64,000 nucleotides of DNA from IMG/VR virus record IMGVR_UViG_3300015608_003951, positions 64,001 to 128,000 of that record, one strand, 5' to 3'. The notes beneath the pieces are model-generated. The model had not been told where the DNA came from. It saw only the letters and a list, made by a program, of their open reading frames with translations, and did not search any database. The translations under genes and the position numbers were made by a program. The stretch is from a virus (taxonomy: Duplodnaviria > Caudoviricetes). Positions 2,957 through 50,417 of the stretch are shown here, one piece after another (position 1 is the first letter of the stretch; each line of letters begins with the position of its first letter).

Positions 2957-3187
2957 ATGTCAGACGACGCCCTCATGGAGGCACAGAAGGCGGTCCTGGA
3001 GCTCTCCCGGCTCCTCACCGCGTCGAACGCTGCACGCGAAGCGCTGCGCGCAGAGCTTCGGTCGGTGCTGGGCGCTTACCGTGCCGCGAAAGCCTTGATC
3101 CTCGTGCTGGAAGCCGGCGCAGACCCTGCTGTGGCCCGCAAGGCCCTGGCTCAGGCGGAGCTTGCCTTGCAGACAAACCGGGTGTTA
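2957..3187 (+). CDS. hypothetical helical protein (76 aa), ends at TTA
   Basis: In-frame TTA 3185-3187, next ATG 3198; the standard-code extension is junk overlapping two other genes. Confidence 0.6.
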
Positions 3188-3197
3188 GGTTTTTGCC

Positions 3198-3452
3198 ATG
3201 GCGGACCAACGGGACGAGGCGCGGGGTGTTCTTACCTCCGTGCTATCCCAGATCAGCCGTGCAAAGCGCGTCCGAGGGGCGGAGGCGCTCACTTTCGAGG
3301 ATCGCCTTCAGGCCGCCATCGCTCAATCGACGGAGGCGAAGGACGCCGCAAGTGCAGCGCACAACAAACTACAGGTGATGGTGGGTGCGATCAAGGCAGA
3401 CCCCAGCACACCTTACGTGGACGACTCCGACACCGTCTTCTCCAGCGTATTA
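3198..3452 (+). CDS. hypothetical protein (84 aa), ends at TTA
   Basis: In-frame TTA 3450-3452 followed by a palindrome and a new ATG at 3498. Confidence 0.55.
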
Positions 3453-3455
3453 CAA

Positions 3456-3474
3456 GAAGTACTTGCAGTACTTC
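3456..3474. promoter_or_regulatory. inverted repeat, putative operator
   Basis: GAAGTACT-tgc-AGTACTTC just upstream of an RHH-like gene. Confidence 0.45.
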
Positions 3475-46769: not shown

Positions 46770-47559
46770 TCTTTTCGAAACGGAGCTCGACCGGGTGGAG
46801 CGGTTCCTCCTGGAGCAGGCGCCCAAAGACGGCGAGTTGCAGCCCTTCGGTGAGTCCACAGACGTGGTGGTGGACGCCTTGCCCTTGGAGGAGCACCACC
46901 ACGAGATACATCTTCCCCCGCACCCGGCCACACTGAACGCCAGTACAGTTTGGAGCTTGCCCGAGGCTCACCCGCTGGTCCTGAGCATGCTGCTGCTCAA
47001 GAAGTACGAGCTGGACTGGCTGGGCTGGACCATGTCGACCGTGGAGCACGCTATCGAGGACGCCTTTGGCCCAGTTCTCCCTGTGAACCTGTCCAAGGTC
47101 ATGGCCTGTCAGCTGGCGCACACCAGCGAAGGTCCGTGGACCCACTGGGAGATGTTTTTGCCGGTGTGTTCGGCCTTCAACAGCGTACTGCCCGACTTCG
47201 AGCAGATGCAGGTGCCCAGCGCCGCTGAGGCCACGTTCGCCGTACGGACGCTCGACATCATCGACACAAGACCGGACCCTTGGTCCACCGAACTCAAACG
47301 CTTCCTATCGACCGTGTACCAGCACGATCAGGTGGCCATGGGGGTGGATGCTTGCGCCTTCATCACGGTCCAGGGCCACTGGCTTGACATGGACCGCGGA
47401 CAGATCCTTCGCAGGTGGCCGGAGGTGAAGCGTACTGGCAAGGCCCCAGAGGGTGACTCGATGGAGGACGAGCAGCTGAGGAAGATGCTGGAGATCGAGC
47501 TCTACCTTGACCAGCAGAGGAAACTCCTTGAGCAACAACTCCACATCGCGAGGCGCTTA
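46741..47559 (+). CDS. hypothetical protein in the head cluster, ends at TTA
   Basis: TTA 47557-47559 overlaps the next ATG (TTATG); start uncertain. Confidence 0.6.
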
Positions 47560-48416
47560 TGCGTAGCCCGATTAAGCTCGCCAACTACCTAGCCCCCACC
47601 CTGGCCGGAGCAGGCCTTGGTGCACTGGCCGGCTTTGGCCAGTCGGTCTCTGCTTCCAGGAACGAAGGGGCTTCTTGGTCCGATGCCCTGAAGGGGGGGC
47701 TCAAGAGGGGGCTACAGGGGGCGGTTGTTGGCGGGGCTGTCGGTGCCGGCGTGCGTAGGTTCTCGCCAGACATGGCAGAGGGGCTAACGAACTACGGACA
47801 TAAGACGCTCTACTCGCTTACGGGCCACTTGCCGCAGGGGAAGAGCCTGGCGGACCTGGGCGGCGGATCCGGGTACACGCAGGGCATCCTCGACAACGCG
47901 AGGAAGGCTGTCCTTGAGAGTAAGGCCACCGAGCAGCACGCCGCGCAGGAGGCCTTCCGACGGGCCCTCGACAGCCACAAGGCTGTGGTCGATGCAGAAC
48001 AATCAGGTCTCACCAACCTTCCGGGATTGGTCAAGGGGCTGGTGACCCCGTCACGCACGCTGGACACCGTGCGTAAGGCCGCCAAGGGGACTTGGGCAGG
48101 CACAGACACCCTCGGCAAGGCCTTGATCCTATCCCCCCTCATCGGAGGGGCAGCCAGCATCGCGACGGACCCCAGCGAGGAGGACCCCCGAAGCCGGCTC
48201 AGGAAGGCCGTTGAGATAGGGGGCACCACGGCGCTTAACCTGGCCACGGCGCCCCTTCAGATGGCCACCACGGCCAAGTCTGTTACAGGCTCCCTCCTCG
48301 GCCAGATCACGGCGGGGACCGGGGTAAACCATATGATGACTTTGCCCATCCAGGAGCTGGCGCGCAAGGTAGACGTGCCTCCTCCCCTACCGCGACCCAC
48401 CGCAGAAGCAGGGTGA
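47559..48416 (+). CDS. Gly/Ala-rich putative internal virion/ejection protein
   Basis: KLA near the N-terminus, then AGAGLGALAG and GAVVGGAVGAG glycine-zipper segments. Confidence 0.55.
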   Translation: MRSPIKLANYLAPTLAGAGLGALAGFGQSVSASRNEGASWSDALKGGLKRGLQGAVVGGAVGAGVRRFSPDMAEGLTNYGHKTLYSLTGHLPQGKSLADLGGGSGYTQGILDNARKAVLESKATEQHAAQEAFRRALDSHKAVVDAEQSGLTNLPGLVKGLVTPSRTLDTVRKAAKGTWAGTDTLGKALILSPLIGGAASIATDPSEEDPRSRLRKAVEIGGTTALNLATAPLQMATTAKSVTGSLLGQITAGTGVNHMMTLPIQELARKVDVPPPLPRPTAEAG

Positions 48417-48422
48417 TCGAGA

Positions 48423-50417
48423 ATGTTCGCTGACGCAGCCGTAGCCGGGTCTTCGACCAGATACTCCAGGACCCGTGGCCGGATCCAGGGCGGGGAGAGC
48501 ATGGGTATCGCGTACCCACACCCCTGGTTTGATCTGGCCACTACGTATATGCCGCAGAACATGAAGTCCCTCTTCAGGTGGCTTCGGCATTACTTCTTGC
48601 TCAACGGGTTCTTCAACGTCGTCGTAAGTAAGCTCGCGGAGTACCCGATCACGGCCCTCTTTTTCGAGGGCAAGAACGAAGAGATCTCCCGGAAGTGGCA
48701 GCGGTACTTCCAGGAGCACCTGCGCTACCGGCTCTTTCAGCTCGAAGTAGGCCTCGATTACTTCGTCTACGGGAACGCGTTCATAAGTCTTCGCTACCCC
48801 TTCACCAAGTTCCTCAGGTGTACGGGGTGTGGCTGGCAGAGCGCGGCCAGGTCTTGCAGGGACCACTGGACCTTCTCGGGCCATGACTTCAACCTGACCT
48901 GCCCGAAGTGTAAGCACTCAGGGCCCGCTAAGGTGCACGACGTGACCACCAAGGTGGCCTCGGGGGCACGCCTCATCCGTTGGAACCCGGAAGCCATTAC
49001 CATCCGGTACAACGAGGTGAGCGGACACAAGACGTTCTACTACGATCTTCCAGGGCACTTGCGCAATGACATCATCATGGGGCGCAAGCACGTGGTGGAG
49101 GAGATCCCCCAGACGTTCATCGAGGCCGCCAGGAAGAACATCGGGGTGACTATCCCCTATGAGCAGCTGTTTCACATGGCCCGTCCCTCCATTTCAGGGT
49201 TCGATCGCGGCTGGGGCATCCCGCTCCTCCTTTGCGTGATCAAGGAGGGGTTCCAGATGCAGGTGCTTCAGAAGGCGAACGAGGTGATCCTGATGGAGCA
49301 CCTCCAGCCCCTGCGCACGATCTTCCCTCAGCCCGGTGCGGGCTCTGCGGACCCTTACACGATGACCTCCTTGCCCCTGTGGAAGGAGCAGATGTCGAAG
49401 GAGATCGCGCGCTGGAGGTGGGATCCGGCGTACATCCCTGTCATGCCCCTACCGATAGGCCAACAGACCATTGGTGGCGAGGGGAAGGCCCTGCTCCTGG
49501 ATCAGCAAATCCAGTCCAAGGCCGAGGCCATCGTGGTCCAGCTCGGCGTCCCCAAAGAGATTATCTTCGGGGGAGCAAGCTGGTCAGGCGGTACCGTGGC
49601 GATGCGCGCGGTGGAGAACTTCTTCCTCGGGTACCTGGAGGAACACAAGGCCCTTCTGCGCTTTGTCGTGGAGCAGCTGCGCGTTGCCCTCGATTGGCCC
49701 GAGGTCGATGCGCACTTCAAGCCCTTCCGTATGGCAGATGACATGCAGAGGCAGCAGCTGCTCTTGCAGGCTGTCCAGCTCAACACCATGTCCCGGGAGA
49801 CCTGGCTTGGCCAGATGGACTTCGACTACAAGCAGGAGATGCAGCGATCTGAACGGGAGATCGATGACCAGCTCAAGCTACAGAAGAAGCAACAGATCGG
49901 CGCAGCCAAGCTCCAGGCGGAAGTAGCTGCACTGAGCGCCGCGACGGCAGCGGAGAACGGTCAGGCTCAGCAGGCTATGCAGCAAGGCCCGCTCCCCGGG
50001 GAGCCGGGAGCACCAGATTCGCTGACCCCAGAGCAAGCGCAGCAGCAGGCTGCCCAACAGCAGCCCCCGGCAGCCCCCGGCCAGGGTGGCGCTGCCCCCG
50101 CCCCAGACGCTGTCGATCAGTTCAACAACGTCATTTCAAGCCAACTTACGCAGAGCTCTGCGAACCGGCCATCCGCGGGTCTGGACATGGTTGCGGCCTC
50201 CTACGCCAAGCAGATCTCGCAGATGCAGCCGCAAGAGGCCAACTCCATGTTGCAGGCTCTCCAGCAGCAAAGCCCCGACCTCTACGCCATGGTCATGCAG
50301 AAGCTTCAAGAAATGGGGGCTAGTCCCACCCTTTCCGGCCCAGGCGCGGTCCAACAGCCCGCTGTGGATATGGCCCCCCTGCCGGAGAAACTCCCTCCGA
50401 GAAGGGCTTCTGTTTTA
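48423..50417 (+). CDS. portal protein with zinc-finger insertion (664 aa), ends at TTA
   Basis: DYFVYGNAF, LFHMARP..GWGIPLL, LGVPKEII; Q/P-rich tail; TTA 50415-50417 removes a 516-nt antisense overlap. Confidence 0.8.

What the first reader, a model, noticed from the sequence alone, without database searches (positions are those of the whole stretch)
2957..50417. TTA (Leu) behaves as a fourth stop codon: apparent sense-to-stop reassignment in a phage
Seen: in-frame TTA at 3185, 3450, 5076, 5798, 8236, 12578, 13696, 28961, 29578, 30361, 30785, 38014(-), 44752(-), 45939, 47557 and 50415, each at a plausible gene end. By eye I found none inside the body of a credible gene, including the 2804-, 1320-, 1309- and 1107-aa ORFs, although CTA, CTT and TTG are used freely. 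Independent support: (1) TTATG stop-start overlaps at 28961, 29578 and 47557 mimic TAATG/TGATG coupling; (2) TTA directly follows an SSB-type DDNVPF tail; (3) terminators lie between TTA and the canonical stop at 12581 and 37955; (4) TTA removes junk extensions of 186 (portal), 309, 135 and 65 codons that overlap other genes. TAA, TAG and TGA are all still used as stops. Known: TTA is a stop in NCBI table 23 (Thraustochytrium mitochondria), TTA is regulatory in Streptomyces via bldA, and described phage recodings are stop-to-sense. Inference: a sense-to-stop code in the phage or its host, which I am not aware of in phages. Weak cases: 8236, 13696 and 28961 lie 1-2 codons before a normal stop and are uninformative alone.
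Basis: partly seen in the sequence, partly recalled or inferred. Interest (0 to 1): 0.97.

Follow-up and report, generated by a model that had tools for sequence, protein, structure and literature searches.

The report
Leucine codon TTA ends phage genes
In this 162-kb high-GC phage and its nearest relatives the leucine codon TTA is never used inside genes and sits exactly where related phages have ordinary stop codons, so it acts as a fourth stop codon, a code change published so far only for mitochondria and plastids.

Summary
Observation confirmed, and it holds genome-wide. All 16 listed TTAs are in frame at gene ends. Across the 162,306-bp genome, TTA occurs 0 times in frame inside genes but 398 times out of frame, and it ends 40 of 177 predicted genes.

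If TTA is ignored as a stop, it lies a median of 11 codons before the next canonical stop. TAG and TAA behave the same way when ignored (14 and 18.5). Coding periodicity stops at TTA.

Orthologues in related phages from other samples end at the same residue with TGA, TAA or TAG. In relative G007 the swap also runs the other way: G007 has TTA where this phage has TGA or TAA.

The portal tree places all TTA-stop genomes in one well-supported high-GC clade. The sister clade uses TTA as a sense codon.

The mechanism is unresolved. The phage encodes no release factor. It does carry a Trp-like, non-leucine tRNA with anticodon UAA, next to a Pth2 hydrolase. In G007 the same module holds a tRNA(CUA) that must read a TAG inside Pth2, so a suppressor-type role is likelier than a terminator role. 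Host-side termination is my best guess; I could not identify the host.

This scan noted the same phenomenon earlier in other phage genomes. My literature searches found no report for phages or bacteria.

The parts
3185..3187 (+). TTA ending the 76-aa gene 2957-3187
   Evidence: Next gene starts 10 nt later. The frame stays open for 308 more codons across other genes.
3450..3452 (+). TTA ending the 84-aa gene 3198-3452
4676..4732 (+). 18-codon leader ORF (MSTLTPML-TTA-IHLPRGPPL-TAG) in front of the Pth2/tRNA gene group. Candidate only.
   Evidence: Read from sequence. Its 3' end can pair with the SD of gene 4773, but the fold is not better than shuffles, z = -0.9.
5076..5078 (+). TTA ending the 101-aa gene 4773-5078, which overlaps the Pth2 start
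5062..5382 (+). Pth2-family peptidyl-tRNA hydrolase, ends in TGA
   Evidence: Pfam PF01981, E = 9.3e-10, 39 bits against a cut-off of 23, covering profile positions 2-112 of 115.
5798..5800 (+). TTA ending the 134-aa gene 5396-5800
5856..5929 (+). tRNA with anticodon UAA (cognate to UUA), not leucine-type
   Evidence: ARAGORN. Rfam tRNA 51 bits. 74 nt with a short variable loop, G73, U37, and C31.C39 and U50.C64 mismatches. Body most like phage tRNA-Trp.
8236..8238 (+). TTA ending the 762-aa helicase-like gene 5950-8238
   Evidence: TAG follows one codon later, so this case is uninformative alone.
12578..12580 (+). TTA ending gene 11597-12580
   Evidence: A hairpin plus T-run follows before the canonical stop 19 codons later.
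13696..13698 (+). TTA ending gene 12637-13698
   Evidence: TAA follows one codon later.
28961..28963 (+). TTA ending the 767-aa gene 26660-28963 (TTATGA)
   Evidence: The G007 orthologue ends with TGA within 1 residue.
29578..29580 (+). TTA ending gene 28963-29580, TTATG overlap with the next start
   Evidence: The G007 orthologue ends with TGA.
30361..30363 (+). TTA ending gene 29869-30363
   Evidence: The alignment reaches the last residue in both genomes and G007 has TGA there.
30785..30787 (+). TTA ending gene 30374-30787, convergent with a minus-strand gene
   Evidence: G007 has TGA within 2 residues.
38014..38016 (-). TTA directly after a ...DNVPF tail of gene 38014-39291
44752..44754 (-). 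TTA ending gene 44752-45222 (TTATG)
   Evidence: The G007 orthologue also ends in TTA.
45939..45941 (+). TTA ending the 179-aa gene 45402-45941. The next gene starts at GTG 45945 in the same frame.
   Evidence: L001 and L002 have two separate genes here, and their first protein ends ...FGG-stop exactly where ours has ...FGG-TTA.
47557..47559 (+). TTA ending gene 46741-47559 (TTATG)
   Evidence: L001 and L002 stop at the same column. L004 and L007 have TTA there.
50415..50417 (+). TTA ending the 664-aa portal gene 48423-50417
   Evidence: Homologues end 1-3 residues after the conserved PPRRA motif.

Best explanation
TTA (UUA) is a translation stop signal in this phage lineage, used alongside TGA, TAA and TAG. 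It ends about 23% of this phage's genes.

Shown: TTA is excluded from gene bodies in frame only. It sits at the column where orthologues have canonical stops, and it exchanges with them in both directions between related phages. It takes part in the same stop-start overlaps. Coding signal ends at it. The trait is confined to one clade of the phage family.

Inferred, with my odds among the mechanisms:
- About 45-50%: termination at UUA is carried out by the infected cell's own machinery, that is a host release factor with widened specificity. This is the mechanism proposed for organellar RF2 with a Ser204 substitution. I favour it because the phage record encodes no release factor.
- About 20%: UUA is an unassigned codon and the stalled ribosome is rescued.
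- About 10-12%: the phage's own tRNA(UAA) and Pth2 carry out termination.
- The rest: unknown.

The tRNA(UAA) is most likely a weak suppressor-type tRNA or a decaying relic. It belongs to a Pth2-tRNA module that in relative G007 holds a tRNA(CUA) needed to read a TAG inside Pth2.
For: Statistics.

Orthologue ends. At least 10 genes have TTA here and TGA in G007. At least 5 have TGA or TAA here and TTA in G007, among them the 1309-aa protein.

Independent assemblies from other samples show the same pattern. G007 has 12 TTAs at a median of 18 codons from the stop. G008 has TTAs 2, 2, 12 and 35 codons from the stop. L004 and L007 show it too.

Portal tree: all TTA-stop genomes fall in one clade with 100% local support, and all TTA-sense genomes lie outside it.

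No RF-1 or PCRF domain appears in the six-frame search of the genome.

Precedent: UUA is a stop codon, together with an RF2 Ser204 change, in labyrinthulean mitochondria and dinoflagellate plastids (PMC12574857).

For the tRNA role: the G007 Pth2 carries an in-frame TAG at a conserved position and is directly followed by a tRNA(CUA). Pth2 lies within about 1 kb of tRNA genes with varied anticodons in 5 relatives, three of which were scored as using TTA internally.
Against: The phage keeps a well-formed tRNA cognate to UUA (Rfam 51 bits). If that tRNA were charged and efficient, it would read through 40 gene ends.

No host was identified and no host release factor was examined.

My attempts to find a host-side signature failed:
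- MAGs binned with clade relatives have the normal RF2 SPF motif.
- One such MAG uses TTA internally.
- 0 of 401 sampled Myxococcota genomes matched an [A/G]PF pattern, but I ran no positive control for that pattern.
- Metagenomic bacteria with GPF-type RF2 still encode SecA residues with TTA, one of them a conserved Leu.

There is no protein or ribosome-level evidence.
Confidence: 0.85

Rival explanations
1. Phage-private termination. The odd tRNA(UAA) recognises UUA in the A site and acts as a terminator adaptor. It would do so either by entering uncharged or by forming an unstable peptidyl-tRNA that drops off, which the neighbouring Pth2 then hydrolyses.
For: The tRNA is cognate to the stop-like codon, is not Leu-type, and has U37 and a C31.C39 mismatch, which would weaken decoding. 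Pth2 lies 470 bp upstream. The phage has no release factor.
Against: G007 uses TTA stops, yet its Pth2-linked tRNA has anticodon CUA and is evidently a sense suppressor for a TAG inside Pth2. No tRNA(UAA) was found in G007 (59% complete) or G008 (25% complete). Pth2-tRNA modules also occur in relatives that use TTA as a sense codon. Drop-off of long peptidyl-tRNAs and hydrolysis triggered by deacylated tRNA are inefficient (general knowledge).
Confidence: 0.1
2. UUA is an unassigned codon. The host lacks a tRNA that reads UUA, ribosomes stall there, and the protein is freed by a codon-independent rescue route (ArfB-like, or A-site mRNA cleavage followed by ArfA/RF2).
For: High-GC relatives have almost no TTA, 8-10 per 51-59k codons. 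From memory: unassigned UUA has been described for Micrococcus luteus, and AGA/AGG in vertebrate mitochondria began as unassigned codons.
Against: 23% of genes, including structural genes, and tight TTATG coupling argue for efficient, clean termination. tmRNA rescue would tag the proteins for degradation. TTA (40) is used more often than TAA (26).
Confidence: 0.18
3. TTA is still a sense codon read by the phage tRNA, and the C-terminal tails are real. This would be regulated read-through or a bldA-like control.
For: The phage encodes a cognate tRNA. A leader ORF with an internal TTA precedes the tRNA gene group.
Against: The tails show no coding periodicity. They are absent from orthologues. 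They often run antisense through other genes. No internal TTA occurs in about 49k codons.
Confidence: 0.04
4. Assembly or base-calling artefact that turns TGA or TAA into TTA.
Against: A frame-blind error would also hit the thousands of out-of-frame TGA and TAA trinucleotides. It would break the long ORFs, which are intact. The same pattern appears in independent assemblies from other samples.
Confidence: 0.01

Closest known systems
UUA-to-stop reassignment in organelles (NCBI table 23, labyrinthulean mitochondria; peDinoflagellate plastids; UUR stops in Marsupiomonadales and Pseudoscourfieldia mitochondria)
   Same: The same codon changes from Leu to stop. It is found only at 3' ends, where homologues have stops, and it is used beside the canonical stops (PMC12574857).
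   Different: There the change is tied to a Ser204 substitution in organellar RF2 or to a modified mtRF1a, and no cognate tRNA gene is present. Here the system is a phage in a bacterial cell, no release factor is encoded, the host is unknown, and a tRNA with anticodon UAA is present.
Phage stop-codon recoding with suppressor tRNAs (TAG or TGA read as sense; codes 15 and 4)
   Same: A phage lineage departs from its relatives' code and carries a non-canonical tRNA cognate to a stop signal. Relative G007 has a tRNA(CUA) and a TAG-interrupted Pth2.
   Different: The direction is the opposite: sense to stop. No in-frame TAG was found in 20.9k aligned G007 residues outside Pth2. No TTA occurs inside genes here.
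AGA/AGG 'stops' in vertebrate mitochondria (table 2)
   Same: Sense codons that lost normal decoding and now end genes.
   Different: Those are read by a dedicated RF1 paralogue, mtRF1 (as cited in PMC12574857), and occur in only two genes. Here 40 genes are affected and the factor is unknown.
bldA / TTA regulation in Streptomyces
   Same: A rare TTA codon in a high-GC genome, with a dedicated tRNA(UAA).
   Different: bldA is a true tRNA-Leu that decodes internal TTA codons. Here TTA is never internal and the tRNA lacks Leu identity.

Membership tests
Sense-to-stop codon reassignment (UUA = stop, table-23-like) | The codon is absent from in-frame positions inside genes but present out of frame | tested here: met
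   0 in frame against 398 out of frame in about 49k codons.
Sense-to-stop codon reassignment (UUA = stop, table-23-like) | The codon sits where homologues have termination codons | tested here: met
   including swaps in both directions with G007.
Sense-to-stop codon reassignment (UUA = stop, table-23-like) | No cognate tRNA in the system | tested here: not met
   The phage encodes a tRNA with anticodon UAA. The host's tRNA set is unknown.
Sense-to-stop codon reassignment (UUA = stop, table-23-like) | A release factor altered in its codon-reading region (RF2 Ser204 to A/G/C) | not testable with these tools
   The host is unknown and the phage has no release factor. Searches of candidate host groups found nothing that links an RF2 change to TTA stops.
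Sense-to-stop codon reassignment (UUA = stop, table-23-like) | The protein actually ends at the codon | not testable with these tools
   This needs C-terminal proteomics or ribosome profiling.
Bacterial tRNA-Leu (type II) | Long variable arm and A73 discriminator | tested here: not met
   74 nt, 5-nt variable loop, G73. The nearest annotated tRNAs are tRNA-Trp.
Phage stop-to-sense recoding (code 15 or 4) | In-frame TAG or TGA inside conserved genes | tested here: not met
   When ignored, TAG behaves as a normal stop.
Pth2 peptidyl-tRNA hydrolase (PF01981) | Full-length match above the Pfam gathering score | tested here: met
   39.2 bits against 23, covering 2-112 of 115. 73 homologues carry PF01981.

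The most novel reading that the evidence does not exclude
The phage makes UUA a private stop codon with its own parts. A Trp-derived tRNA with anticodon UAA would act as a codon-specific terminator adaptor together with Pth2. That would be tRNA-mediated termination without a release factor.
Probability: 0.08. Interest if true: 0.98.

Novelty: new variant of a known kind. Interest (0 to 1): 0.88.

Why it matters
Published sense-to-stop changes are confined to organelles. Phage code changes described so far are stop-to-sense. My literature searches returned no report of a Leu-to-stop change in a phage or bacterium.

Three consequences follow if this holds:
- Either a bacterial host group with a four-stop code exists, or there is a phage-borne way to create a stop codon. 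Both can now be tested.
- Standard gene callers mis-annotate these genomes. The public protein record for this portal is an 808-aa read-through, and a neighbouring gene start is miscalled in L004.
- A natural UUA-to-stop system that also carries a matching orthogonal tRNA would interest genetic-code engineers.

Tried and rejected
Frameshift into a stop at TTA: rejected. Only 17 of 40 sites are TTAA or TTAG, about the chance level, and there is no conserved flanking codon.

Selected back-up stops: not supported. Distances to the next canonical stop match those of ignored TAG and TAA.

Pth2 as a TTA-specific factor: rejected. It occurs in TTA-sense relatives, always beside tRNAs of varied anticodon.

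A TTA gate inside this phage's Pth2, by analogy with the TAG gate in G007: none found.

Genes needing TTA read-through: none found. Every 'internal' TTA resolves to a gene boundary.

Homologues of the tRNA in viral contigs, searched by pattern: none.

Direct close relatives in viral contigs or in the phage collection: none.

Host search: see the Against line. RF2 GPF and APF variants exist in metagenomes, but their contigs use TTA as a sense codon.

The first tree run timed out.
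Full report
**Material.** The window is bases 64001-128000 of a single 162,306-bp IMG/VR virus record. 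It has 62.2% GC and is about 87% complete by CheckV.

**1. The observation**

I built a simple codon-usage gene finder and ran it with three or four stop codons.

Under table 11, 34-35 in-frame TTAs occur in about 47.6k codons. They lie a median of 11 codons before the canonical stop. 66-68% are within 25 codons of it, against 7-14% for ATA, CTA, AAT, ATT, TAT and TCA (19-22% for AAA and AGA). The binomial p is 2e-14.

With TTA treated as a stop, the model gives 177 genes ending in TGA 98, TTA 40, TAA 26 and TAG 13. Coding density is 90% against 88% under the three-stop model.

Inside genes the TTA trinucleotide occurs 0, 266 and 132 times in frames 0, 1 and 2. That is the signature of a stop codon, not of a base-composition effect.

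As a positive control I ignored TAG or TAA instead of TTA. This gave the same distance distribution, with medians of 14 and 18.5 and Mann-Whitney p of 0.66 and 0.23.

GC by codon position is 0.62/0.46/0.78 in the 30 codons before TTA. It is 0.62/0.60/0.63 in the in-frame intergenic tails after TTA. The same loss of periodicity follows canonical stops (0.58/0.62/0.63).

**2. Comparative evidence**

The portal read to TTA is 664 aa. It has 620 homologues of 640-700 aa with full coverage, and the family consensus ends a few residues after PPRRA. Ours reads PPRRASV-TTA.

Syntenic contigs L001 and L002 (64-65% GC, from other samples) have two separate genes where this window has the TTA-joined ORF 45402-46769. 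Their first protein ends ...FGG-stop exactly where ours has ...FGG-TTA. The protein of gene 46741-47559 ends at the same column.

L004 and L007, from two further samples, have TTA at that same gene end. There the next gene starts at a GTG two bases later, behind a GAGGAGG.

G007 is a 108-kb syntenic IMG/VR relative with 65% GC. It has 12 in-frame TTAs at a median of 18 codons from the stop.

Extending orthologue alignments to the first stop shows TTA here and TGA in G007 at equivalent positions in at least 10 genes. The reverse, TGA or TAA here and TTA in G007, holds in at least 5 genes, including the 1309-aa protein. In two genes both genomes have TTA.

G008 (66% GC) has TTAs 2, 2, 12 and 35 codons from stops.

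A frame-blind sequencing error cannot produce this pattern. It would also convert out-of-frame TGA and TAA trinucleotides and break the long ORFs.

**3. Distribution in the phage family**

The portal family has 408 IMG/VR relatives.

Lower-GC members use TTA throughout genes. High-GC members outside the clade (G005, G012, G026) have only 8-10 TTAs per 51-59k codons, and these are not clustered at gene ends.

A FastTree portal tree puts this phage, G007, G008, L007, L003, L001, L002 and L008 in one clade with 100% local support. All genomes scored as TTA-sense lie outside it. L001 and L002 have no TTA at all in 31 genes.

**4. Mechanism**

The genome shows no RF-1 or PCRF domain in a six-frame search.

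It has two tRNAs: Met(CAT), and a 74-nt tRNA with anticodon UAA at 5856-5929.

The UAA tRNA has these properties:
- It scores 51 bits on the Rfam tRNA model.
- It lacks the long arm and the A73 of tRNA-Leu.
- It has G73, U37 and two stem mismatches.
- It most resembles phage tRNA-Trp.

A Pth2 hydrolase lies 470 bp upstream.

In G007 the Pth2 orthologue is directly followed by a tRNA with anticodon CUA. That Pth2 carries an in-frame TAG at a conserved position, so the tRNA(CUA) must act as a suppressor there. L155, whose Pth2 is 61% identical to ours, also has a nearby tRNA(CUA).

Pth2 lies next to tRNAs with other anticodons in four more relatives, three of which were scored as using TTA internally.

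So the Pth2-tRNA pairing is a general module. In this phage its tRNA is cognate to the new stop codon. I read that as a suppressor-type or relic tRNA rather than a terminator, though this is inference.

No gene in this genome needs TTA read-through.

An 18-codon leader ORF with an internal TTA and an RGPP motif precedes the gene group. I found no statistical support for a structure there.

**5. Host side**

Relatives of the wider family are binned in Myxococcales/Myxococcota and Deltaproteobacteria MAGs, and also in Anaerolineales and Desulfatibacillum MAGs. None of the MAG-borne relatives placed in the portal tree (L110, L111, L113, L116) falls in the TTA-stop clade; L112, L114 and L115 were not placed.

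Those MAGs have normal RF1 and RF2 motifs. One of them uses TTA internally.

A DNA pattern for HRLVRx[A/G]PFD hit 0 of 401 sampled Myxococcota genomes. I ran no positive control for this pattern.

The same pattern found real GPF- and APF-type RF2 genes in metagenomes. The neighbouring SecA genes, however, use TTA as a sense codon: at the conserved DVQL Leu in L170, and before the conserved C-terminal zinc finger in L212. That substitution alone is therefore not a marker of TTA stops in bacteria.

I could not reproduce or refute that claim.

**6. Literature and earlier notes**

Searches for a phage or bacterial sense-to-stop change, or for UUA as a stop, returned nothing relevant.

UUA and UUR stops are documented only in organelles, with release-factor changes (PMC12574857).

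The scan's own notes record the same pattern in several other phage genomes, among them a 435-kb megaphage. I have not checked those notes.

**Verdict.** TTA is a fourth stop codon in a clade of high-GC phages. Who reads it is open.

Noticed in passing
G007 (loci L099-L104), genome coordinates 37619-37959; also locus L109: The Pth2 orthologue has an in-frame TAG about 11-14 codons in (...KLRVVTLREG-TAG-VGFRGAQAIHG...). It is immediately followed by a tRNA with anticodon CUA, so Pth2 appears to be gated by suppressor activity.
   Followed up: partly
L105-L108 (relatives G014, G027, G023, G011): tRNA genes next to Pth2 carry unusual A34 anticodons: AAA twice, AAU, AAC and AAG. Apart from tRNA-Arg(ACG), A34 is rare in bacterial tRNAs.
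   Followed up: no
L089 (G006) 1100-1540: A tRNA array mixes true long-arm tRNA-Leu (CAA, GAG) with short class-I tRNAs that have Leu anticodons UAA and CAG and an A73 discriminator.
   Followed up: no
window 4676-4732: An 18-codon ORF overlaps the preceding stop (ATGA). It has TTA as codon 9 and ends in ...PRGPPL. Its 3' end can pair with the SD of gene 4773. The fold is not better than shuffles.
   Followed up: partly
L170 (metagenome contig of 324,922 bp), minus strand around 5605-6669: A bacterial prfB encodes RF2 with GPF in place of SPF. Its CTT-TGA-C frameshift site is followed at once by GAC-TTA. The SecA next to it uses TTA for a conserved Leu.
   Followed up: partly
window 54355-62769; L002 11710-18046: A single 2804-aa ORF fuses RNA polymerase beta-like (Rpb2) and beta-prime-like (Rpb1) domains. 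Some relatives show an intein signal in it.
   Followed up: no
Proteins P0008, P0010, P0012, P0094 (portal homologues of 1069-1106 aa): Several relatives carry a LAGLIDADG (PF14528) insertion, probably an intein, inside the portal gene.
   Followed up: no
genome 43797-43871 (outside the window): The only other tRNA has anticodon CAT. It could be a tRNA-Ile2 type that reads AUA. This was not examined.
   Followed up: no
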